Below are positions 30,834 through 54,200 of a stretch of DNA of 64,000 nucleotides, in pieces. How positions within the stretch are numbered: position 1 is the stretch's first letter; each line of letters begins with the position of its first letter. This DNA comes from a virus. The translations under genes and the position numbers were made by a program. The stretch lies in the IMG/VR virus record IMGVR_UViG_3300035698_004085, positions 64,001-128,000 of that record. The stretch is one strand, 5' to 3'. The notes below the pieces were generated by a model. That model ran no database searches. It saw only the letters and a program-made list of their open reading frames with translations, and was not told the origin of the DNA.

Positions 30834-32423
30834 ATGATACCTACATTTAATGAATTAATGCAGAATGAGAAAGTTAGGAATCATCCCTTACTTGCAGGAT
30901 ATAATAACCTGCCTAACGTTAGAGAAGGTATTCTAAAGCACTCACAATCGCTTGAGGATGAGTTCTCTCAGTCTACCAACCCTTTAAAGGAAGATCCTGA
31001 GTTAGACCTTCAATCGACTATTCATGAGGCTGCTAGGTTAGTGGAGGATTCCTTAGCTCAGTTTGATTTTCCTCTTCTTCCTAAGATCTCTTATAACAAT
31101 ACAAGAGATCTCAAGTATGCTCGTCATAATGAGGCTCAAGTGTCTCAAGGGTTAGTCCTGTTCAACGTTGAAATGAAAGCTGCTTCTGGTATTAAGAAAA
31201 CAGCTCTAATTCCCGTAGCAATCTCAGGAGGAACTTTAGTTCCTCCTTCTGTCATGGAAGTTGATGGAAGCATGTATACGCTTTCTCAATCATCTGTTAA
31301 TACTATTTTAGGAAGGTTGACTTCGTATGAGTTGCCTCAGCTAAGAGAGCAGTTTGATCCTCCTATGAATAGAGATGAGCGAAGTATAGCTGTTGACATG
31401 AGGAATGAAGCAGGTTGGAAAACTAGAACTAAAAACCCTGAGCACTATATGATGCAAGAGGTTAAACAAGCTAGGCGAAGAGCGCAAATGGGGTTGGAGA
31501 GCTACCTAAGCGTTGTAGAGGACTGGGCTGCTGATCAAGGGCTGAGCATAGAAGGTACTCCTAGTTTTGCAGAAGGTGAAATGGGATTGTCGCTAAGTGA
31601 TGGTAGTAAGATAGTTGTGACTAAGGGAGATGAAGCAGGGTCTGAGGTATTATGGGTTTCGGACCTTACTAATCCGAATAATGATGACACAATAACGTTA
31701 ACTGCGCGTAATAAGAATGCTGCTGGCAAGAAAGCTGTTAAATCTACTCCAAGTGCTTATGGAATCGTTATGGAAGCAATGATAGAGGCTGAAGAGAGCG
31801 GAGAAGATACGTTCCCGCGTCCTTATCATTATGTGCTGGCTAACTACATCTTAAAGCACGTTAACACTGCGTCTAAAGACGCTTGGGAGCCTCACCTTAT
31901 TAATCAGGGATTCTGTATCAATCCTTACGGATATAATAGACATCGGTTTCATAAAGGTGGCAGAGTTAGTCAGAGTGAGATTGAAGAATATTATGAGGAT
32001 GGTGGTCCTAACAAAAAGCAGTGTAAGGGTTGTGGCAAACTGTTTGATGTTAGGGAGCTAGACGACAAAGGTAACTGCGAGGACTGTGCTCCTTCAGCTA
32101 AGAACGCTAAATATCGAAGGAGTGCTCAACATGAGAAGACGCAAGAGTTTGATAAAGAGATTGATTTTGAGTTGGACGAGGATGAAGGGATATCTGAAGC
32201 AGTTCCTGGAGGGAATAGCCGCTTTTATACGGATACAAAAACCCCAATTGAGCCAAGCGATAAGGTAAGATTTCCTCATTCTAAAGGTCCAATGCGTGGA
32301 GTAATTGTAGAAATAAGCGAAGATGAAAACACTATAATTATTGAGTCTAAGGGTGACCAATACAGGGTTGAGGTAGATAGCGTAGAGCCACTTCCCGCAA
32401 CATTCAAAAAGATGTATCGATAG
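30834..32423 (+). CDS. Modular protein with basic linkers, a zinc finger and a C-terminal SH3/KOW-like domain
   Basis: ARRRAQ and YRRSAQ linkers; CKGC..CEDC; IEPSDKVRF..RGVIVEI. Confidence 0.65.
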   Translation: MIPTFNELMQNEKVRNHPLLAGYNNLPNVREGILKHSQSLEDEFSQSTNPLKEDPELDLQSTIHEAARLVEDSLAQFDFPLLPKISYNNTRDLKYARHNEAQVSQGLVLFNVEMKAASGIKKTALIPVAISGGTLVPPSVMEVDGSMYTLSQSSVNTILGRLTSYELPQLREQFDPPMNRDERSIAVDMRNEAGWKTRTKNPEHYMMQEVKQARRRAQMGLESYLSVVEDWAADQGLSIEGTPSFAEGEMGLSLSDGSKIVVTKGDEAGSEVLWVSDLTNPNNDDTITLTARNKNAAGKKAVKSTPSAYGIVMEAMIEAEESGEDTFPRPYHYVLANYILKHVNTASKDAWEPHLINQGFCINPYGYNRHRFHKGGRVSQSEIEEYYEDGGPNKKQCKGCGKLFDVRELDDKGNCEDCAPSAKNAKYRRSAQHEKTQEFDKEIDFELDEDEGISEAVPGGNSRFYTDTKTPIEPSDKVRFPHSKGPMRGVIVEISEDENTIIIESKGDQYRVEVDSVEPLPATFKKMYR

Positions 32424-44762: not shown

Positions 44763-45066
44763 AAGGGAAGAACAATGGGAATTATAGTAGAAATCATCTT
44801 TTGTCCACTTTTGGCACTTGCTTGGGTGGCTGGCACTCTCTGTTATAGTCTTATTAAAATGTTCAAGAAAGGGTTTTGGAGTTAAAAAATGGAAGTAATT
44901 AACTGTGCAATTTGTGGAAAAGGTCTTAAGCGCTCTGATTTTACCATGACAGATCTGGAGAACGAGAAGAAGGCTGTCTACTATCAATCGTTTGGCGCTG
45001 CTTGTCTGTCGCATAAGGGAGTCGCCAAGATGTTTACTGAGGTTCTCGAAAAAGCTGAAAAAGAAC

Positions 45067-45095
45067 TTGACAAACTAACCTCATAGTGTTAAGCT
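45067..45095 (+). promoter_or_regulatory. Sigma70-type early promoter (overlaps the 3' end of ORF 44889-45086)
   Basis: TTGACA-N17-TAAGCT. Confidence 0.85.
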
Positions 45096-45174
45096 TTATT
45101 CATGGACAGGGAAACCCTCAATCTTCAGAGCATATAACTTTGATCCATAAAGGTCAATAAAGAAGGGATTTAAA

Positions 45175-45456: not shown

Positions 45457-45735
45457 GATGTTTCAATGGCTTAATAAATGTTGGTTTCATCCACGGAGCA
45501 AATATGAGACAGTGGATACGGCTACTTGCACGATAACTACGTATGACAGTTGGTTTAACAAGAAATTGTACTCGTATCCTGCGGTTATAAAGCTTTGTCG
45601 ATGTAAGAAATGTGGGAAAGAAGCTGCGTTCTATGTTGACGGGTCTGAGTATGAACAAGTCGATGTAGACTATGCTAAGATTAAGCATGGGTTGAAAAGT
45701 CCTGAGAAGGAGAAATAATTTATTTTTAAAATAAG

Positions 45736-45764
45736 TTGACATTCTCAGATTCTTGTGATAATAT
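45736..45764 (+). promoter_or_regulatory. Promoter for the first ncRNA operon
   Basis: TTGACA-N17-TAATAT; boxA-like GATTCTTTGACAA at 45779-45791. Confidence 0.8.
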
Positions 45765-45806
45765 AGTAAATTCGGTTAGATTCTTTGACAATTTAATATT
45801 TTGTTT

Positions 45807-45905
45807 CGGGATGTGGTGGAATTGGTTATACACTCCAGTTGTCTGGTGAGGGATCATCTATAGCGCAGTAGACCCCTTTTTCAAGTTCAAATCTTGGCGT
45901 CCCGA
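45807..45905 (+). ncRNA. tRNA-like RNA A (no canonical anticodon loop, long variable arm)
   Basis: Acceptor CGGGATG/CGTCCCG-A, D arm GTG..CAC, T arm TCAAG-TTCAAAT-CTTGG; anticodon arm CCAG-TTGT-CTGG has only a 4-nt loop. Confidence 0.75.
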
Positions 45906-45916
45906 TAACGTCTCCT

Positions 45917-46010
45917 GGTGATTTATGTTGGATATGGAGGTAGCTCCTCCCATTAGGTTCAATTCCTACCTGTAATGGTATAGAATCAGGTTCAAATCCT
46001 GAAATCACCT
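45917..46010 (+). ncRNA. tRNA-like RNA B with a second internal T-loop hairpin
   Basis: Acceptor GGTGATT/AATCACC, T arm TCAGG-TTCAAAT-CCTGA; internal CCATTA/TAATGG stem around GG-TTCAATT-CC. Confidence 0.65.
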
Positions 46011-46042
46011 TAACGTTGACAGGCAGCGGGAGAAGTTTTTAT

Positions 46043-46199
46043 GCGTGGGTGGCGCAATATACAGACGCACTGGTTATAAAGCTTTGTAAGGGCTGTGTCC
46101 TGGGATGGTTTGCTCTTCAGTTTATCTGGGAGGACAGAGGTTTGACTCCTCACGCATTATAACTAGCTTACATTGTAGGTGAAAACCCTGCCCCACGCT
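46043..46199 (+). ncRNA. tRNA-like RNA C with a ~75-nt structured domain replacing the anticodon loop
   Basis: Acceptor GCGTGGG/CCCACGC, D arm GCG..CGC, 10-bp CTGGTTATAA/TTATAACTAG stem, T arm GTAGG-TGAAAAC-CCTGC. Confidence 0.75.
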
Positions 46200-46208
46200 C
46201 AATTTTAT

Positions 46209-46563
46209 GGGCTTGACTTGGATTCGACTTTTGTTAATGAAGCGTACGATGCATGTTCCGCTTTTATTAGTCAGCGGGTTAAAAAGGCTTTTAAATTATA
46301 GTTGACGAAGACTATTACGAAATGGCAGAAGCGGCTTAAACCCCTCTGTCCGTCAATACTAGGGAGTGCTACATAACTAGTTGCGGCGTCATTTTTGTGG
46401 CTCGCTTGTTGCGTAGGTAATTGGGCAAAACAAGTTAAAAATACCATTTGCAAACCTGGAGAATGACTTCTAATAAGTTCTTCAGGTAGCCTGATTAGGA
46501 AAAGCATGTAACGAATTGTATGCGGAGAACAAAAACACGGGGGATCGAAACCCCCCAAGTCCA
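46209..46563 (+). ncRNA. ssrA: tmRNA; tag (A)DEDYYEMAEAA
   Basis: 5' GGGCTTGA..GGATTCGAC; acceptor GGGCTTG/CAAGTCC-A with G3.U70; T arm; resume context ATAGTT-GAC; tag ORF 46304-46339 ending AA-stop. Confidence 0.93.
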
Positions 46564-46744
46564 CAAGTAGCTGATTTTATTAGCTTAAAAGGACTTTAAG
46601 CTGGTTAGTGATTGACCTAAAGATCCTCATAAGTAAGGACGCTAAAGCGACCTTCAACCAGTAGTATCTCAGTACGCTAATGAATCACGGAATAAGGAGT
46701 TTCAGGGCTTTTACCTTATTCTGAATCTTTTAAAGCCCATTTTC

Positions 46745-46817
46745 GACCACTTAGCTCAGCTGGTAGAGCATTTGTTTGTTAAATAAAAGGTCAAAGGTTC
46801 AACTCCTTTAGTGGTCG
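46745..46817 (+). tRNA. tRNA-Asn(GTT)
   Basis: Full cloverleaf; loop TT-GTT-AA; discriminator G. Confidence 0.88.
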
Positions 46818-46942
46818 CAGCTCACCTGCCATGCGTAGGAGGAGTATCGAGATCGTCAGGCTTGGGAAGTCCACTGGCGCTCTTAGCAAAATCCTATCTA
46901 CCTAGTGTAGAAAAGGCTAGGACGATGTTTTGCAACGTCCTC

Positions 46943-47104
46943 GTAAACAAGTTCTTTGTAATGATGGGGCAAAGTAGGGTAAAGCTGCCTGAAAACGTCT
47001 CCCAAAGTCTGTTCGCGGCAGATGTTCGTGAGTTCGAATCTCACCCCTTAGCAGTGCGTTGGGGGTTCACACGAGGAATGTGGCTTTACAAAGTTCTTGT
47101 TTAC
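46943..47104 (+). ncRNA. Circularly permuted tRNA mimic (Y RNA/YrlA-like architecture)
   Basis: Terminal stem GTAAACAAG-TT-CTTTGTAA / TTACAAAG-TT-CTTGTTTAC enclosing T arm, closed acceptor-like hairpin and D-like arm in that order; T tract follows. Confidence 0.7.
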
Positions 47105-47124
47105 ATTTTTTAAAGGAGGAAATT

Positions 47125-47447
47125 ATGAGTATAGACTACCATACCTGCCCAGTTTGTGGTTCAATCTTACCTGGAAGAAAACTTCATTTTGTGATCATAA
47201 ATGTCTTAGAGACTTCTATATGAAAACAGACTGGAGCAGAGTTAGGAAAGTAGTTTATGCTAGGGATGGTGGGATTTGTATGATTTGTGGTCTTCCTATA
47301 AAGGGGACTTATCATGTAGACCATATTATGCCTTTGGTCAAGGGAGGTGATGAATGGGATTTAGAGAACCTTCAATTGTCTTGTCCTACTTGTAACTTAA
47401 AAAAAGGAACTAAGCTTGTTTCTTCTAACAAAAAGGAGATGGACTAA
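47125..47447 (+). pseudogene. HNH endonuclease interrupted by a -1 frameshift at 47178-47181
   Basis: RBS GGAGG-ATG 47125 MSIDYHTCPVCGSILPGRK continues in the -1 frame as TSFCDHKC..RDGGICMICG..HVDHIMP..NLQLSCPTCN. Confidence 0.7.
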
Positions 47448-47684
47448 TGTCTACTGGAGATTTTGACGATAACTACTATAAAAAGCATTTTGGTAATGCT
47501 ATTTACGTGTCTCCTTTACTACCTGAGACGGTACCAGAACCCTGGGTAGAGCTTATTAAGGCTTTAGAAGAGCGTATAGACGCCTTAGAGAAGAAGGTGG
47601 AGTCTCACGAGAAGCTTAATTCCAGTACAAGAACTAGCAATAGTCTTCATACTCCATTATTCGGAAATTAAATTAAAAAAGAAC

Positions 47685-47713
47685 TTGACAACTCAGCTTT
47701 TAAGTGTTATGCT
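47685..47713 (+). promoter_or_regulatory. Sigma70-type early promoter
   Basis: TTGACA-N17-TATGCT. Confidence 0.85.
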
Positions 47714-47756
47714 TTCTTTAATGGATGAGGGAACATTCAACGAAAGGGAAAGTAAG

Positions 47757-47948
47757 ATGGCTACTGAGTTTAGCGTAGGTGACTCGGTTATTGCAATTGG
47801 GCTTGGGAATAAGAGTGGAGAGATTCTTAGTATTGGTGGGTCTTCTACTTATCCCGTTTACATTGTTGATCTGGGTTTGTCGCATTTAGGAATTAAGCCT
47901 GTTCAACTTTTGTCAGAAGAATTAGAAAAAGAACTTGACAACTCCTGA
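47757..47948 (+). CDS. Small SH3/KOW-like protein
   Basis: FSVGDSV..GEIL..YIVDL. Confidence 0.55.
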   Translation: MATEFSVGDSVIAIGLGNKSGEILSIGGSSTYPVYIVDLGLSHLGIKPVQLLSEELEKELDNS

Positions 47949-47963
47949 AAAAGGGAGTAAGCT
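47935..47963 (+). promoter_or_regulatory. Promoter for the second ncRNA operon
   Basis: TTGACA-N17-TAAGCT; boxA-like GGTTCATTGATAA at 47985-47997. Confidence 0.8.
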
Positions 47964-48001
47964 AGTATGTAGAGATTGAGAAACGGTTCATTGATAATTG
48001 A

Positions 48002-48427
48002 ATAGCTGCTAAACAAAGTCTTGGGATGACTTTTAAAATAAACTCACACTGGTGGAGGATGCCGGGAGGCGTCCCTAAATAGAAGTCCAAAGGATACTGA
48101 TGACTGCTTAAAAGCCGTATCCAGATCTAAAGTGCTGGTACAAACCCTTTGAAGGTTGTAGAAGTCAGAGAATTAACTCTAGCCCATTACGTGCTAAATG
48201 ATGCTTAATAGGCGTTATAAAGACATCGGAGATGACCGACAGCACTCAACAACGTTCCGTTAGTCAGCGGATAGTTAGGAGAGACGCCTAATGAAGAAAA
48301 GAATTGACATTCTTAAAAAACTCTCTTCTTGAGTAAAGACGCAGTAGTTGCGATAGTCTACAGTGGTGAGTAGGCGCTATAACCAAGCGGTGGAGCACTT
48401 TGCATTGAAGCCGTCTGGTCTACTCGT
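48002..48427 (+). ncRNA. Large structured ncRNA candidate (~425 nt)
   Basis: No ORF of 60 aa or more; more than ten hairpins plus long-range pairs (GTGCTG/CAGCAC, CACTG/CAGTG, GAGTAGGC/GTCTACTC). Confidence 0.65.
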
Positions 48428-48432
48428 TTTAT

Positions 48433-48545
48433 CCTTGGGTAGCTAAGAGCATGACCTTGACAAGCATTCTAGGTGTAGGTTGAGATAATCATGGCGAAAA
48501 GCGGGGTGCGCAGCCTCAATGTTGGTTCAAGTCCAGCCCCAGGGT
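48433..48545 (+). ncRNA. tRNA-like RNA E with a ~50-nt hairpin inserted in the D loop
   Basis: Acceptor CCTTGGG/CCCAGGG, TA-GCT..AGC, T arm GTTGG-TTCAAGT-CCAGC, 5-nt anticodon loop GCGCA. Confidence 0.72.
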
Positions 48546-48548
48546 CTA

Positions 48549-48710
48549 GAGACGTGGTAAAATCCAGAATAAGGGGTGTTCAGTTGAGAGTGCATGGATG
48601 TGTATTCGGAGCTGACTTAAATTAGTCGAGACTCTGGTTGTTTCGCTAATGTAAAAATACAATTCCACAACAGCGTAAGTGTGGATCTGACTAGCCCTAA
48701 CTATGTCTCG
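48549..48710 (+). ncRNA. Multibranch ncRNA candidate
   Basis: Closing stem GAGACGTGGT/ACTATGTCTC with internal helices. Confidence 0.55.
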
Positions 48711-48898
48711 TTTAATATATTTCGAAAGCTGTGATTGTTTGAATTGTTGCGTCAGGTTAGGATGCGTTGAGTAAGCTTTTTATCACAGTGTTGTTTCTCT
48801 GGAGGCTTACTCTCATGGGCGTTGGTCCGTCTTCAAGCTCGGGACCCCGGAAATACAATCCTAACACGCTTGATCTTTTTAACAAAAAGGATAATGAT

Positions 48899-49234
48899 AT
48901 GAAAATAGTAGGAATAGTTTTTATAATTTTAGTTTGTCTATTCTGTGTATTTTATTCAGGATTCAATGTAGGAGATAGCGTTAGTAGGTTTAGGGTTGCA
49001 GAGTACGAAAAAGCTATTCAAAAACTAGAAACTAAATACGATAGATGCACTAAGTGCAAATTAATTGTTATTCCAGTGAAAACGGATACTGAATGTAAGG
49101 AGCTAGAAGGACAGTACGCAGCTATTCAAAAGTGGTGTGACCCAGATTGCCCAGAACAACTGGAAGCGTGTCAGATTGCCTTAGAGAGACTGTGGGGCTA
49201 TCCTTCTTATAAGTTGCTCGAACAGGAGATTTAA
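48899..49234 (+). CDS. Membrane-anchored hypothetical protein
   Basis: AAGGA-ATG MKIVGIVFIILVCLF hydrophobic N-terminus. Confidence 0.6.
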   Translation: MKIVGIVFIILVCLFCVFYSGFNVGDSVSRFRVAEYEKAIQKLETKYDRCTKCKLIVIPVKTDTECKELEGQYAAIQKWCDPDCPEQLEACQIALERLWGYPSYKLLEQEI

Positions 49235-49236
49235 TA

Positions 49237-49294
49237 ACTCGCACAGTGAAACGCTGAGGAGCGTCTAAGCTTACTCTTACTGATGAGTGCGGGT
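49237..49294 (+). ncRNA. Hammerhead ribozyme (type II topology)
   Basis: ACTCGCAC-AGT-GAAA-CGCT(GAGG)AGCG-TC-TAAG(CTTACT)CTTA-CTGATGA-GTGCGGGT; GUC cleavage predicted after 49265. Confidence 0.85.
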
Positions 49295-49329
49295 AACAGG
49301 TTTTTGCATACTTCACCTAAAGAAAGTAT

Positions 49330-49473
49330 GATAGCATAGTGACTGTCCGTAAGTTTTTATAGTAGCGGGGGTTATCGGCTTACCGCGCTTAAGAGCTTGA
49401 CAGGCTAGAGCAGACATGTCTAGAAGATGAGATTTGACTAATATCTCAGGAGTGACACTCCGCGCTATGTTAT
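49330..49473 (+). ncRNA. Multibranch ncRNA candidate
   Basis: Closing stem ATAGCATAGTG/CGCTATGTTAT with four internal arms, followed by a T tract. Confidence 0.55.
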
Positions 49474-49518
49474 TTTATTCTCTTTCCTAATTTATTTTAA
49501 ATTCTTTTCATTATTTTG

Positions 49519-51162: not shown

Positions 51163-51248
51163 GCGCGGATGGGGGAATGGTCTACCCAGGAGATTCAAAA
51201 TCTCCCGCCTGTAAGGGCTTGCAAGTTCGAATCTTGTTCCGCGTACCA
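51163..51248 (+). tRNA. tRNA-Leu(CAA)
   Basis: Cloverleaf with a long variable arm, loop TT-CAA-AA, encoded ACCA. Confidence 0.93.
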
Positions 51249-51344: not shown

Positions 51345-51656
51345 ATGGCAAAAAAGAAACAAGAAGTAAGACTAACCGTTGACTCCATGTACCCTTATGA
51401 TCTAGAAGGGAGCATAGATGACGCTATTGAACATCTTCAAGAGGTTAAAGAAGCTAGCAAAAAGCATACTGATCTTCGGTTAAACTTTGTTCAGACTTGT
51501 GATGACGAGTGGGAGTTTGAAGTTATAGCTTATCGGCTAGAAACTGACAAAGAGTGCGACAAGAGAATCGCCAAAGAGAAAGAGCGAAAAGAACGAGAGG
51601 CTGAGCATAGGCGTCAAGAGTTTCAAAAGCTAAAGAAAGAGTTTGAAAATGAGTAA
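51345..51656 (+). CDS. Hypothetical protein
   Basis: RBS; YRLETDKE followed by a coiled tail. Confidence 0.6.
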   Translation: MAKKKQEVRLTVDSMYPYDLEGSIDDAIEHLQEVKEASKKHTDLRLNFVQTCDDEWEFEVIAYRLETDKECDKRIAKEKERKEREAEHRRQEFQKLKKEFENE

Positions 51657-52218
51657 GCATCAGAAACTCAGCATCTTTATTAGCCTTATTCTCAGGCATA
51701 AGCCAGGAACGGTAGGAATGGCTCTCGATGAGAACGGTTGGGCAGTTGTTGATGACCTTATCCTTGGAGTTAACCTAAACTCTAAACACTTGCTTAACCG
51801 AATGATCCTCAATGAAATTGTTGCTAGTGACGATAAGCAACGGTATTCATTCAACGAGGACCAATCGATGATTAGAGCTAATCAAGGTCACAGCGTTAAT
51901 GTAGACATTAAATTCGAGGAAAAAGATCCTCCAGATATTCTTTATCACGGCACGAACGCTGAAGCTCTTGACTCAATCTATAGAAAAGGTCTTAAGTCAA
52001 TGAAGCGTCATGATGTTCATTTGTCTGCTGATTTCGACGAGTCTTATCGAGTGGCTAATAGGCGTAAGAATAAGTATCCTATTGTTTTGGTGATTGCTGC
52101 TTCTGAAATGAAAGAGAAAGGCTTTGTATTCAATCTTTCCGAGAATAAGGTTTGGCTAACTAAAAAGATTCCCAGTCATTATATTATGGGAATTTATGAT
52201 TTGGAGGATCGGGGATGA
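51649..52218 (+). CDS. kptA: RNA 2'-phosphotransferase (KptA/Tpt1)
   Basis: SLILRH, DKQRY, IRANQGHS, LYHGT, RHDVHLS, NKVWL. Confidence 0.93.
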   Translation: MSKHQKLSIFISLILRHKPGTVGMALDENGWAVVDDLILGVNLNSKHLLNRMILNEIVASDDKQRYSFNEDQSMIRANQGHSVNVDIKFEEKDPPDILYHGTNAEALDSIYRKGLKSMKRHDVHLSADFDESYRVANRRKNKYPIVLVIAASEMKEKGFVFNLSENKVWLTKKIPSHYIMGIYDLEDRG

Positions 52219-52676
52219 AGAACTCTAACCCTCTTCAACATGTTATAGACTATGCAACCAAAGCTCATGAAGGACAAACGGATAAAGCTGGACAACCTTA
52301 CATTAGACACCCGTTAAGGGTGGCTAGGCGCTGTTCACTATTTGGAGACGACATTGCTAAGGTAGCTTTGCTTCATGACGTTGTAGAGGACACTGAGAAG
52401 ACCTTAAAGCAGGTTGTTAAAGATATGGAGCTTACTAAAGCCGAAAAGAAGGCTTTGGACGCTATTACAAAGAGGGATAAAGAGGAGTATACTAAATATC
52501 TTTCAAGGGTTTCGAATAGTAAGATTGCTTGGCTGGTAAAGATTTATGATCTGGAAGATAATATGAGCGATGAGCGAATGTCTCAGCTTCCAGAAGACGT
52601 CCAAGAGAGACTTTTGAAGAAGTATAATTTTGCTTTAAAGACTTTGGCTCTAGGATCTTGGATGAAGAATGAGTAG
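52215..52676 (+). CDS. HD-domain hydrolase (SpoT/Mesh1-like, stand-alone)
   Basis: AHEGQTDKAGQPYIRHP, LLHDVVEDT, VKIYDLEDN. Confidence 0.85.
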   Translation: MKNSNPLQHVIDYATKAHEGQTDKAGQPYIRHPLRVARRCSLFGDDIAKVALLHDVVEDTEKTLKQVVKDMELTKAEKKALDAITKRDKEEYTKYLSRVSNSKIAWLVKIYDLEDNMSDERMSQLPEDVQERLLKKYNFALKTLALGSWMKNE

Positions 52677-53834: not shown

Positions 53835-53863
53835 TTGACAATCCTTATTAAAGGTGTTAAGAT
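53835..53863 (+). promoter_or_regulatory. Promoter for tRNA-Ile
   Basis: TTGACA-N17-TAAGAT. Confidence 0.8.
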
Positions 53864-54171: not shown

Positions 54172-54200
54172 TTGACAAACCCTTTCCCGCGTGTTAAGCT
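54172..54200 (+). promoter_or_regulatory. Sigma70-type early promoter
   Basis: TTGACA-N17-TAAGCT. Confidence 0.85.

What the first reader, a model, noticed from the sequence alone, without database searches (positions are those of the whole stretch)
45807..48545. A family of anticodon-less tRNA scaffolds: intact acceptor and T arm, with foreign domains grafted into other arms
Seen: four RNAs (45807-45905, 45917-46010, 46043-46199, 48433-48545) keep a fully paired 7-bp acceptor stem stacked on a 5-bp T arm with a 7-nt loop, yet none has a 7-nt anticodon loop. A has a 4-nt loop and a ~33-nt variable arm; B and C carry structured domains on the anticodon arm; E has a ~50-nt hairpin in the D loop and a 5-nt anticodon loop. 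The inserts are themselves base-paired and too short for group I introns, so this does not look like random decay. Inferred: natural tRNA-scaffolded RNAs cut out by RNase P/Z, acting as decoys for tRNA-targeting defences or as stable carriers of aptamer-like domains. I know of no described family that covers this set.
Basis: partly seen in the sequence, partly recalled or inferred. Interest (0 to 1): 0.85.

Follow-up and report, generated by a model that had tools for sequence, protein, structure and literature searches.

The report
Anticodon-less tRNA-shaped phage RNA genes
A 175-kb phage carries four genes that keep a tRNA's acceptor stem and T arm but cannot read codons; one belongs to a large, poorly described family of leucine-tRNA-shaped phage RNAs whose job is unknown.

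Summary
All four elements have a fully paired 7-bp acceptor stem abutting a 5-bp T stem with a 7-nt loop. That motif occurs 7 times in the genome against 0.17 per shuffled genome. No element has a standard anticodon stem-loop, and ARAGORN and Rfam do not accept any as a tRNA.

The four are not one family.
- A (45807-45905) is a clear member of a large phage-specific group of leucine-tRNA-shaped RNAs without an anticodon. A model built only from other phages scores it 50.6 bits (E 5e-14), above the phage's own tRNA-Leu. Phage T5 RNA1 and an unannotated Bacillus phage Eldridge element also fit.
- B and E match only through the acceptor and T arm (about 20 bits).
- C is weaker (14 bits) and lacks the canonical T-loop and D-loop residues.

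The inserts fold no better than shuffled sequence. No diverged relative of this phage exists, so insert covariation cannot be tested. Splicing to ordinary tRNAs is unsupported.

Precedents exist: T4 species 1 RNA and T5 RNA1/RNA2, both of unknown function. Earlier notes of this scan reported the same leucine-frame family in other phages; I re-derived it independently here.

A keeps nearly the whole minimal set for LeuRS charging. Function remains unknown.

The parts
45736..45764 (+). Sigma-A-type promoter about 43 nt upstream of A (TTGACA, 17 nt, TAATAT, with TG before the second hexamer). It probably drives A, B, C, the tmRNA and tRNA-Asn as one precursor.
   Evidence: 10 of 12 consensus matches. 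No + strand terminator-like site before 48503. That this is one transcription unit is inferred.
45807..45905 (+). Element A, a 99-nt RNA in a leucine-tRNA frame. Acceptor 45807-45813 / 45898-45904; U8 G9; 3-bp D stem with a GAAUUGG-type loop. A 4-bp stem capped by a 4-nt loop (CCAG-UUGU-CUGG, 45835-45846) stands where the anticodon arm should be. A 34-nt variable-arm domain (45847-45880) follows, then the T arm (45881-45897) and discriminator A.
   Evidence: R1 (built from 63 IMG/VR elements, none from this phage): 50.6 bits, E 5e-14, full length. ARAGORN makes no default call. MFE is a cloverleaf.
45917..46010 (+). Element B, a 94-nt tRNA-derived RNA with a perfect acceptor and canonical T arm, U8 A9 and discriminator U. 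Its interior is ambiguous. One fold has a D-position arm carrying the hairpin GGAGG-UAGCU-CCUCC plus a 4-bp/6-nt hairpin. The other contains a second T-loop-like hairpin, UAGG-UUCAAUU-CCUA.
   Evidence: Minihelix scan. R1 gives 20.9 bits through the acceptor and T arm only. MFE z-score -2.6. ARAGORN -ps80 calls it tRNA-???.
46043..46199 (+). Element C, a 157-nt divergent tRNA-like RNA. It has a 7-bp acceptor and a Leu-like D arm of the right length but without G18G19. Its T loop is the non-canonical UGAAAAC. Its anticodon stem is extended to 10 bp (CUGGUUAUAA/UUAUAACUAG) and carries about 77 nt, including the hairpin GAGG-UUUGACU-CCUC. Discriminator U.
   Evidence: Sequence and MFE. R1 gives 14.1 bits, E 0.0025, at exactly these ends, but only with filters off. 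No Rfam tRNA hit.
48433..48545 (+). Element E, a 113-nt class-I tRNA frame with a hairpin of about 50 nt inserted in the D loop. Its anticodon arm is shortened to GGGGU-GCGCA-GCCUC. The T arm is canonical and the discriminator is U.
   Evidence: Rfam tRNA 24 bits (gathering score 29) with a 50-nt D-loop insertion. R1 20.4 bits. Minihelix scan. MFE.
47935..47963 (+). One copy of the phage's repeated promoter motif (AAAAAGAACTTGACAA ... TAAGCT). It probably drives the ORF-free stretch 47965-48898 that contains E.
   Evidence: Repeat families D1, D2 and D4. Function is inferred by analogy with the copies at 45066 and 47685.
46209..46566 (+). Context: a phage-encoded tmRNA 10 nt downstream of C.
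   Evidence: ARAGORN. Rfam RF00023, 78.7 bits.
46745..46818 (+). Context: a true tRNA-Asn(GTT) in the same array.
   Evidence: 70.9 bits.

Best explanation
The four elements are tRNA-derived RNA genes that cannot decode. They sit in the phage's stable-RNA transcription units.

A is a true member of a large, phage-specific family that keeps the upper body of a class-II leucine tRNA: the acceptor stem, U8-G9, the 3-bp D stem with a GAAUUGG loop, the T arm and discriminator A73. In this family the anticodon and variable arms are replaced by unrelated sequence. T5 RNA1 and an unannotated element of Bacillus phage Eldridge belong to it.

B and E are intact acceptor/T-arm frames of other or unrecognisable tRNA types, with rebuilt D and anticodon regions. 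C is a divergent, elbow-less relative of the Leu frame.

Inferred mechanism:
1. The RNAs are transcribed from the promoter at 45736-45764 (A, B, C) or from a repeated phage promoter (E).
2. They are released by the host's tRNA-maturation enzymes: RNase P at the 5' end and RNase Z plus the CCA-adding enzyme at the 3' end. None encodes CCA.
3. They accumulate as stable L-shaped RNAs.

A retains almost exactly the set of elements that E. coli LeuRS needs to charge a tRNA-Leu lacking both anticodon and variable arms. My best specific guess is therefore that A can be leucylated but cannot enter decoding. It would act through a tRNA-binding partner (LeuRS, EF-Tu, a transferase or a tRNA-sensing defence) rather than on the ribosome. 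What it actually does is unknown.
For: Beyond chance:
- The acceptor/T-arm motif occurs 7 times in the genome against 0.17 per shuffle, and the sites cluster with the true tRNAs.

Family membership of A:
- The pattern GGAATTGG-N55-85-GGTTCRANTCC gave 119 matches in IMG/VR. 87 have a perfect and 7 a 6/7 acceptor pairing.
- The 84 unique sequences carry 74 distinct middles and 46 different acceptor sequences. ARAGORN calls only 2 of them.
- In 120 hits of the same pattern in bacterial and archaeal genomes, only 4 pair.
- The D and T stems, which were not used for selection, are 97-99% paired and covary.
- Model R1, built from 63 of these, scores A at 50.6 bits (E 5e-14). The phage's true tRNA-Leu scores 34.7, T5 RNA1 47.2, and Eldridge 30849-30946 52.1.
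- The Eldridge element is 98 nt and ARAGORN does not call it as a tRNA. It has the same 4-bp/4-nt cap in the anticodon position (CCCG-CGAU-CGGG against A's CCAG-UUGU-CUGG). Both database records show no annotated feature there.

Integrity of A:
- All 15 frame base pairs are intact, as are U8, A14, A15, G18G19, the T loop UUCAAAU and A73.

LeuRS logic:
- It also states that charging depends on A73 and the D/T-loop tertiary pairs.
- A73 is kept in 68 of 84 family members.

Expression context:
- A strong promoter lies 43 nt upstream, with no + strand terminator before 48503.
- The overlapping small ORFs have no convincing protein family match: five have none and one has a single marginal hit, E 0.061.

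Other frames elsewhere:
- Non-Leu frames with cargo also occur in other phages, for example four conserved 133-nt class-I elements.
Against: - There is no expression, end-mapping or charging data.
- The only other contigs carrying this phage are identical across the array, so there is no covariation for any insert.
- The inserts fold no better than shuffles.
- B, C and E have no detectable relatives. They have U73 and no Leu-type D loop, so the LeuRS argument does not apply to them. They could be decaying genes.
- C lacks G18G19 and the canonical T loop.
- A's D loop is one nucleotide longer than the family consensus, and the position equivalent to A20a is U. Charging by LeuRS is therefore not assured.
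- The family set was selected with a pattern that fixes GGAATTGG and the T-loop core. Similarity in those bases is by construction.
Confidence: 0.6

Rival explanations
1. Some or all of the elements, B, C and E above all, are decaying tRNA pseudogenes left by duplication in the tRNA array. They are transcribed only because they lie in the operon and have no function of their own.
For: - B, C and E have no relatives.
- They have no recognisable D arm (B), no elbow residues (C), or a disrupted D loop (E).
- Their R1 scores of 14-21 bits come from generic tRNA parts.
- The inserts fold no better than shuffled sequence.
Against: - Every acceptor and T stem is still fully paired (28 + 20 pairs, at most one G-U per stem), while the middles are completely remodelled. 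Neutral decay would hit the stems as well.
- The middles are longer than in tRNAs, not eroded.
- A, with the same general design, belongs to a conserved family.
- A lytic-type 175-kb phage retains about 3.7 kb of ORF-poor RNA array.
Confidence: 0.25
2. The elements serve only as processing punctuation. Their tRNA-like shapes recruit RNase P and RNase Z to cut the polycistronic precursor, freeing the tmRNA, tRNA-Asn and neighbouring RNAs, as plant-mitochondrial t-elements do. The excised pieces themselves would have no role.
For: - A, B and C lie in tandem directly upstream of the tmRNA, with C ending 10 nt before it.
- There is one promoter and no terminator in between.
- Only the acceptor/T-arm minihelix, the part RNase P and RNase Z need, is conserved in all four.
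Against: - The tmRNA and tRNAs carry their own RNase P and RNase Z determinants and need no extra punctuation.
- This reading does not explain why A keeps the complete Leu-type D arm and A73.
- It does not explain why the family shows conserved middles moved between different frames. In one search, cluster 2 carries the same middle on two different acceptor stems.
Confidence: 0.1
3. One reading: the RNAs are decoys that soak up anticodon nucleases such as PrrC, RloC or PARIS AriB.
For: - Phage tRNAs are known to counter tRNA-cutting defences (eLife 2023, PMC10264068; Nature 2024, PMC11464382; listed).
- The elements lie in a tRNA array.
Against: - These nucleases cut the anticodon loop or arm. 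The bacterial Schlafen cuts the anticodon arm (PMC13056530). That target is missing here.
- An uncuttable RNA cannot replace a depleted tRNA in translation.
- Competitive binding through the elbow alone is possible but untested.
Confidence: 0.07
4. The inserts are introns, and the elements mature into ordinary decoding tRNAs.
For: - A Tpt1/KptA RNA 2'-phosphotransferase gene lies at 51643-52218. In fungi and plants this enzyme finishes tRNA splicing.
- ARAGORN in intron mode can force a fit.
Against: - Removing the inserts restores no 5-bp stem with a 7-nt U33 loop in any element.
- A's anticodon arm is shortened, not interrupted.
- ARAGORN's forced 'introns' give arbitrary anticodons. A becomes Tyr(ata) on a Leu frame, and the 74 family calls scatter over nearly all amino acids.
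- There is no group I intron or other ribozyme hit at E<10.
- The inserts are 30-77 nt.
- The genome has no RtcB and no RNA ligase. The only nucleotidyl-transferase hit is the DNA ligase.
Confidence: 0.03

Closest known systems
Phage T5 RNA1 (NC_005859 30501-30644, misc_RNA 'tRNA-like stable RNA with unknown functions'), and T5 RNA2 and RNA3
   Same: T5 RNA1 has the same Leu-type frame as A: UG, a 3-bp D stem, a GAAUUGGUAGAC loop, a canonical T arm and a paired acceptor. A long structured middle replaces the anticodon arm. It lies inside the phage tRNA cluster, which also holds HNH endonuclease genes. It scores 47.2 bits on the same model that gives A 50.6.
   Different: The middle domains are unrelated in sequence and size (144 against 99 nt). 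A caps the anticodon stem with a 4-nt loop and enlarges the variable arm. T5 RNA2 and RNA3 have other frames. Like B, C and E, they match only generically. The function of all of them is unknown.
Phage T4 species 1 RNA (rnaC) and species 2 RNA (rnaD)
   Same: Both are small stable RNAs encoded at the end of the T4 tRNA cluster, next to a homing endonuclease gene. The 3' 92 nt of rnaC has a canonical T arm (CCGGG-UUCGAAU-CCCGG) abutting a 7-bp acceptor-like helix, and it has no anticodon loop.
   Different: rnaC has no Leu-type D arm and scores only 22.4 bits on R1. rnaD shows no tRNA-like features in its fold. Sequence is not shared.
Unannotated 98-nt element of Bacillus phage Eldridge (KU253712.1 30849-30946)
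   Same: This is the closest in design to A. It is 98 against 99 nt, has a Leu frame, and has a 4-bp/4-nt cap in the anticodon position followed by a second domain of about 35 nt. It lies upstream of a tRNA-Asn in a long ORF-poor region. It scores 52.1 bits on R1 and ARAGORN does not call it. Eldridge shares a lipoprotein (43% identity) with this phage.
   Different: There is no sequence similarity outside the frame. The acceptor sequences differ. Only one such element was found in Eldridge.
Canonical class II tRNA-Leu (Rfam RF00005), including this phage's own tRNA-Leu(CAA) at 51163-51248
   Same: A shares the acceptor, D arm, T arm and A73. A's T arm (CAAGTTCAAATCTTG) is nearly identical to that of the phage tRNA-Leu (CAAGTTCGAATCTTG).
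   Different: A has no 5-bp/7-nt anticodon stem-loop. The Rfam tRNA model does not report A at E<10, and ARAGORN makes no call.
Engineered tRNA scaffolds for RNA expression; tmRNA tRNA-like domain; MALAT1 mascRNA; gammaherpesvirus tRNA-like/miRNA units; plant-mitochondrial t-elements; Bacillus cereus 'tRNA-Other' (all from my own knowledge, not tested here)
   Same: In each case a tRNA-shaped part without decoding function is used for processing by RNase P/Z, for stability, or for binding tRNA-recognising proteins.
   Different: None is homologous to these elements. They come from other organisms and other transcription systems. Only tmRNA is present here, as a separate and complete gene.

Membership tests
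Phage anticodon-less tRNA-Leu-frame RNAs (T5 RNA1 type; not in Rfam) | A 7-bp acceptor stem directly abutting a 5-bp T stem with a canonical UUCRANN loop | tested here: met
   A, B and E meet it. C has the stems, but its loop is UGAAAAC.
Phage anticodon-less tRNA-Leu-frame RNAs (T5 RNA1 type; not in Rfam) | Class-II Leu D arm: U8 G9, a 3-bp D stem and a GAAUUGG-type loop of 11-12 nt | tested here: met
   Met for A only (TG-GTG-GAATTGGTTATA-CAC). C keeps the length and 7 of 12 loop bases but has no GG. B and E do not meet it.
Phage anticodon-less tRNA-Leu-frame RNAs (T5 RNA1 type; not in Rfam) | A significant full-length score on a covariance model built from independent members | tested here: met
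   A scores 50.6 bits, E 5e-14. B scores 20.9 and E 20.4, through the acceptor and T arm only. C scores 14.1, and only with filters off. By this test B, C and E are not members.
Phage anticodon-less tRNA-Leu-frame RNAs (T5 RNA1 type; not in Rfam) | No 5-bp/7-nt anticodon stem-loop, with a foreign middle in its place | tested here: met
   ARAGORN makes no default call. A has a 4-bp/4-nt cap and a 34-nt second domain.
Phage anticodon-less tRNA-Leu-frame RNAs (T5 RNA1 type; not in Rfam) | Discriminator A73 (68 of 84 members) | tested here: met
   A has A73. B, C and E have U73.
Canonical tRNA (Rfam RF00005) | Score at or above the gathering threshold (29 bits), with a 7-nt anticodon loop carrying U33 | tested here: not met
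   E scores 24 bits. A, B and C are not reported at E<10. The loops are 4, 6 and 5 nt, or absent. E's alternative 7-nt loop has G33.
Intron-bearing tRNA (group I intron or enzymatic splicing) | A recognisable intron or splice motif whose removal restores a canonical cloverleaf, plus a ligation pathway | tested here: not met
   There is no intron or ribozyme family at E<10. No canonical loop can be restored. ARAGORN's intron mode gives arbitrary anticodons. No RtcB or RNA ligase is present, and Tpt1 stands alone.
YrlA / bacterial Y RNA | The 5' and 3' ends form a Ro-binding helix, the tRNA-like module is internal, and a Ro (TROVE) gene is linked | tested here: not met
   In these elements the ends form the acceptor stem itself. 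The genome has no TROVE domain.
Two-piece (permuted) tmRNA | Rfam RF04321 at its gathering score of 47 bits | tested here: not met
   A 20.2-bit hit (E 0.32) spans C's inner hairpin and the start of the tmRNA. A complete one-piece tmRNA follows at 78.7 bits.
LeuRS substrate (functional test, not a family) | A73, U8:A14, A15, G18G19 and the T-loop pairs retained; actual charging | not testable with these tools
   The sequence elements are present in A, and the requirement is as stated in PMC9976931. A20a is not conserved in A. Charging needs a biochemical assay.

The most novel reading that the evidence does not exclude
Phages of many lineages, this isolated Firmicute-type phage included, maintain a class of tRNA-shaped RNAs that keep just the parts LeuRS needs for charging and swap the rest. 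The RNAs would be leucylated (or would bind LeuRS or EF-Tu tightly) without ever decoding. They would serve a non-ribosomal purpose, for example:
- feeding an aminoacyl-transferase;
- masking amino-acid starvation signals;
- blinding a defence that senses or cuts tRNA.

B, C and E would be further frames of the same strategy, built on other tRNA types, including a D-loop graft.
Probability: 0.2. Interest if true: 0.85.

Novelty: new member of a known kind. Interest (0 to 1): 0.6.

Why it matters
Stable tRNA-like RNAs of phages T4 and T5 have been known for decades without a function. This window shows that the same design occurs in a phage with no close relatives. In the viral collection such leucine-frame RNAs are common and almost never annotated, while the same pattern in cellular genomes is nearly all chance.

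The frame keeps close to the minimal set of elements that LeuRS needs. That turns an old puzzle into a direct experiment: are these RNAs charged, and what binds them?

For annotation, tRNA finders skip these genes, so long 'non-coding' stretches in phage tRNA regions are probably full of them.

Tried and rejected
**Looking for relatives to get covariation**
- Neighbouring lipoprotein in IMG/VR: nothing.
- A 287-aa neighbour: 37 loci at 31-51% identity, without a comparable array.
- DNA polymerase A: best hit 28%.
- The 5.8-billion-protein search: only the phage itself and one 53% hit on a 631-bp contig.
- The three other contigs carrying the phage are identical across the array.

**Sequence searches**
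- blastn of the array, the tmRNA and the Eldridge element against 50,697 phage records. The array gave only a tRNA match, the tmRNA nothing, and the Eldridge element only its own records.
- An exact 21-mer of B in IMG/VR: none.
- blastn of all the elements against every fetched locus: none.
- The array against the Eldridge RNA region: no significant similarity.

**Other checks**
- R1 on five more Bacillus and Brevibacillus phages: only ordinary tRNAs.
- tRNA-repair genes of phage Izhevsk (RNase Z-like, nucleotidyltransferase, tRNA ligase, RNA ligase): no homologues in this genome.
- RtcB, Rnl2-type ligase and Ro/TROVE: absent.
- Intron reading: rejected.
- Promoter inside E's insert: the TTGACA and GATAAT boxes are 21 nt apart, and the scan does not list them.
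- Coding potential of the overlapping small ORFs: five have no PHROG match and one has a single marginal hit, E 0.061.
- Literature: I found no paper describing the family. A 2023 survey of viral structured RNAs mentions tRNA-like candidates only in general terms, and a 2026 preprint on bacterial tRNA mimics concerns other motifs.
- The T4 genome review PMC150520 is not held.

Full report
**Setting**

The window is bases 64001-128000 of a 175,002-bp viral record with direct terminal repeats. Its genes point to a large phage of Firmicutes:
- a small lipoprotein next to the array is 43-54% identical to proteins of Bacillus phages such as Izhevsk and Eldridge;
- the promoters are sigma-A-like.

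The phage is isolated. Its DNA polymerase A finds nothing above 28% identity in IMG/VR. The only other contigs carrying it are identical across the array.

The region 45736-49500 is poor in ORFs. It holds a tmRNA (46209-46566), tRNA-Asn (46745) and an HNH endonuclease gene. Three more tRNAs lie at 51-54 kb.

**The observation**

All four elements have a fully paired 7-bp acceptor stem that runs straight into a 5-bp T stem with a 7-nt loop. A, B and E have the canonical loop UUCAAAU or UUCAAGU. C has UGAAAAC.

I scanned the genome for this minihelix with a strict UUCRANN loop.
- It finds 7 sites. Six lie on the + strand between 45.8 and 51.3 kb: A, B, E and three true tRNAs.
- Thirty dinucleotide-preserving shuffles of the genome give a mean of 0.17 sites.

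So A, B and E are tRNA-derived beyond reasonable doubt.

None is accepted as a tRNA.
- ARAGORN at default settings calls none.
- The Rfam tRNA model gives E 24 bits, below its gathering score of 29, with a 50-nt insertion in the D loop. It gives nothing for A, B or C at E<10.
- With a relaxed threshold, ARAGORN reports A and B at exactly the stated coordinates as 'tRNA-???' with 4-base anticodons.

The minimum-energy folds are cloverleaf-like.

Some details need correction.
- B's extra domain falls in the D-arm position in the best fold, with a 4-bp/6-nt hairpin where the anticodon arm should be.
- E can be drawn with a 7-nt loop on a 4-bp stem, but that loop has G at position 33.
- The inserts are not more stable than shuffled sequence. 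Z-scores are -0.7 to -1.6 for the inserts alone and -1.2 to -2.6 for whole elements.

**What A is**

A's 5' part reads CGGGAUG-UG-GUG-GAAUUGGUUAUA-CAC. That is the D arm of a bacterial class-II tRNA-Leu. The long variable arm fits the same origin. T5 RNA1 shows the same frame.

I then asked whether such frames with an over-long middle are common.
- The pattern GGAATTGG, 55-85 bases, GGTTCRANTCC excludes normal tRNA-Leu, whose spacing is about 41-47 bases.
- 87 of them have a perfect 7-bp acceptor pairing at the expected offsets, and 7 have six of seven.
- The 84 unique sequences carry 74 distinct middles and 46 different acceptor sequences. 68 have A73. ARAGORN calls only 2.
- In intron mode ARAGORN forces fits whose anticodons scatter over almost all amino acids, so these are not intron-bearing tRNA-Leu genes.
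- As a control, the same pattern in 596 Gb of bacterial and archaeal genomes gave 120 hits, of which only 4 pair. The family is therefore strongly enriched in viral contigs.

On an alignment of 63 members, the D stem and the outer T-stem pairs were not used for selection. They are 97-99% paired with many double changes.

A covariance model built from these 63 (R1) gave the following scores:

| Sequence | R1 score |
|---|---|
| A | 50.6 bits, E 5e-14, full length |
| This phage's tRNA-Leu(CAA) | 34.7 bits |
| B | 20.9 bits |
| E | 20.4 bits |
| C | 14.1 bits, filters off only |
| T5 RNA1 | 47.2 bits |
| Eldridge 30849-30946 | 52.1 bits |

The Eldridge element is 98 nt. ARAGORN does not call it, and both database records leave it unannotated. 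It shares A's design: a 4-bp stem with a 4-nt loop in the anticodon position, then a second domain of about 35 nt, upstream of a tRNA-Asn. Outside the frame the two share no sequence.

**What B, C and E are**

They match R1 and Rfam only through parts common to all tRNAs.
- **E** is a class-I frame (UAGCU...AGC D stem, 5-nt variable region). A hairpin of about 50 nt replaces the GG part of the D loop, and the anticodon arm is 15 nt long.
- **B** has a perfect acceptor and T arm but no recognisable D arm. One of its competing folds contains a second T-loop-like hairpin.
- **C** keeps a Leu-like D arm of the right length but has lost G18G19 and the UUC of the T loop, which together form the elbow. 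Its anticodon stem is extended to 10 bp and carries about 77 nt.

All three have U73. I found no relatives for any of them.

Comparable non-Leu frames do exist in other phages.
- Four contigs carry a conserved 133-nt class-I frame. Its anticodon stem is extended to about 12 bp and topped by a module with a T-arm-like and a D-arm-like part.
- One Leu frame carries an insert in its D loop.

So B, C and E fit a wider habit of phage tRNA clusters. Whether they are functional or decaying cannot be settled here. The fully paired stems argue for constraint. The lack of relatives and of any fold-energy signal leaves the question open.

**Mechanism**

Shown:
- the tRNA-derived frames;
- the lack of a decoding loop;
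- A's membership of the Leu-frame family;
- a strong promoter 43 nt upstream of A, with no + strand terminator-like site before 48503;
- no encoded CCA;
- no convincing protein family for the overlapping small ORFs, with one marginal hit at E 0.061.

Inferred:
- co-transcription with the tmRNA and tRNA-Asn;
- release by RNase P, RNase Z and the CCA-adding enzyme.

The most specific lead concerns A. A review of tRNA identity states three things about E. coli LeuRS (PMC9976931):
- it ignores the anticodon and the variable arm;
- minimal tRNA-Leu molecules lacking both arms are still charged;
- charging needs A73 and the D/T-loop tertiary pairs.

Those are the parts the family conserves. A has all of them except a clean A20a. 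I therefore think A is most likely chargeable with leucine yet unable to decode. This is a prediction, not a result.

The decoy idea for anticodon nucleases is weak, because the loop they cut is absent.

Splicing is rejected:
- there is no intron family hit;
- no canonical loop can be restored;
- the genome has no RtcB or RNA ligase, although a lone Tpt1 gene lies 5.5 kb away.

A Y-RNA reading fails on topology and on the absence of Ro.

**Comparison and novelty**

The kind is known. T4 species 1 RNA and T5 RNA1/RNA2/RNA3 are annotated stable tRNA-like RNAs of unknown function in tRNA clusters that, as here, also hold homing endonuclease genes.

I found no Rfam family and no paper that describes the Leu-frame family as such.

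Earlier notes of this scan report the same family in other phages and pointed me to the T5 record. I had already seen the Leu-type D arm in A and C, and I re-derived the family with my own pattern, control and model.

This window adds a new member in an isolated phage (A), plus three unusual tRNA-derived singletons. The D-loop graft (E) is the most distinctive of these.

**Verdict**

- Observation: confirmed.
- Interpretation: partly supported.
- Function: unknown.
- Interest: moderate to high for the family, moderate for this instance.

Noticed in passing
window 51643-52218 (and 52215-52676): A Tpt1/KptA RNA 2'-phosphotransferase gene (Pfam E 3e-43) lies directly after tRNA-Leu and tRNA-Gln, followed by an HD-domain protein. 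The genome has no RtcB and no RNA ligase that would create its usual substrate.
   Followed up: partly
window 46209-46566: A complete phage-encoded one-piece tmRNA with tag peptide DEDYYEMAEAA begins 10 nt after element C.
   Followed up: partly
window 45583-45598 and 46072-46087: An exact 16-nt repeat, GGTTATAAAGCTTTGT, occurs once inside ORF 45458-45718 and once as the 5' strand of C's extended anticodon stem. Only about 0.003 such repeats are expected by chance in 5 kb. It may mark a recombination scar or an RNA-RNA pairing site.
   Followed up: no
window 45058-45100, 47676-47718, 47925-47963, 53836-53862, 54173-54200: A repeated phage promoter motif, AAAAAGAACTTGACAA, then about 17 nt, then (TG)TTAAGCT or TATGCT, stands in front of both small ORFs and RNA units.
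   Followed up: partly
window 47097-47447: An HNH endonuclease gene sits inside the RNA array, as segB does in the T4 tRNA cluster and hegA/C/D in the T5 tRNA cluster.
   Followed up: partly
window 46819-47096, 47965-48432, 48546-48898, 49235-49500: There are further ORF-free stretches in the array. The first contains a perfect T-arm-like hairpin, GUGAG-UUCGAAU-CUCAC, at 47028-47044 (R1 local hit, 9.3 bits). No Rfam family matches any of them at E<10.
   Followed up: no
window 45861-45868 and 48507-48513: The hairpin loop of A's variable-arm domain (UAGCGCAG) and E's anticodon-position loop (UGCGCAG) share GCGCAG. This may be chance.
   Followed up: no
L241:1501-1598 (Bacillus phage Eldridge KU253712.1 30849-30946): An unannotated 98-nt Leu-frame RNA scores 52.1 bits on R1. 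It lies in a 2.4-kb stretch where the record lists only one small hypothetical ORF (135 nt). That stretch also holds tRNA-Asn, Trp and Met, which the record does not list.
   Followed up: partly
L158:5933-6065(-), L213:1132-1264(+), L222:3225-3357(+), L219:2122-2255(+): Four IMG/VR contigs share a 133-nt class-I tRNA frame. Its anticodon stem is extended to about 12 bp and capped by a module with a T-arm-like hairpin, a short closed helix and a D-arm-like segment, that is, a permuted tRNA-like unit nested in a tRNA. Base changes between the copies keep the pairing.
   Followed up: partly
L167:7179-7283, L183, L209, L231 (cluster 2): The same conserved middle domain sits on two different acceptor stems (AGUGGUA... 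and AGUCAGG...). Apparent compensatory changes (GCGU/ACGU to GUGU/ACAC) suggest that cargo is under selection and moves between frames.
   Followed up: no
L173:5302-5469(-): A 168-nt Leu-frame element carries an insertion inside the D loop, between GAA and UUGG. This is the nearest parallel to E's D-loop graft.
   Followed up: no
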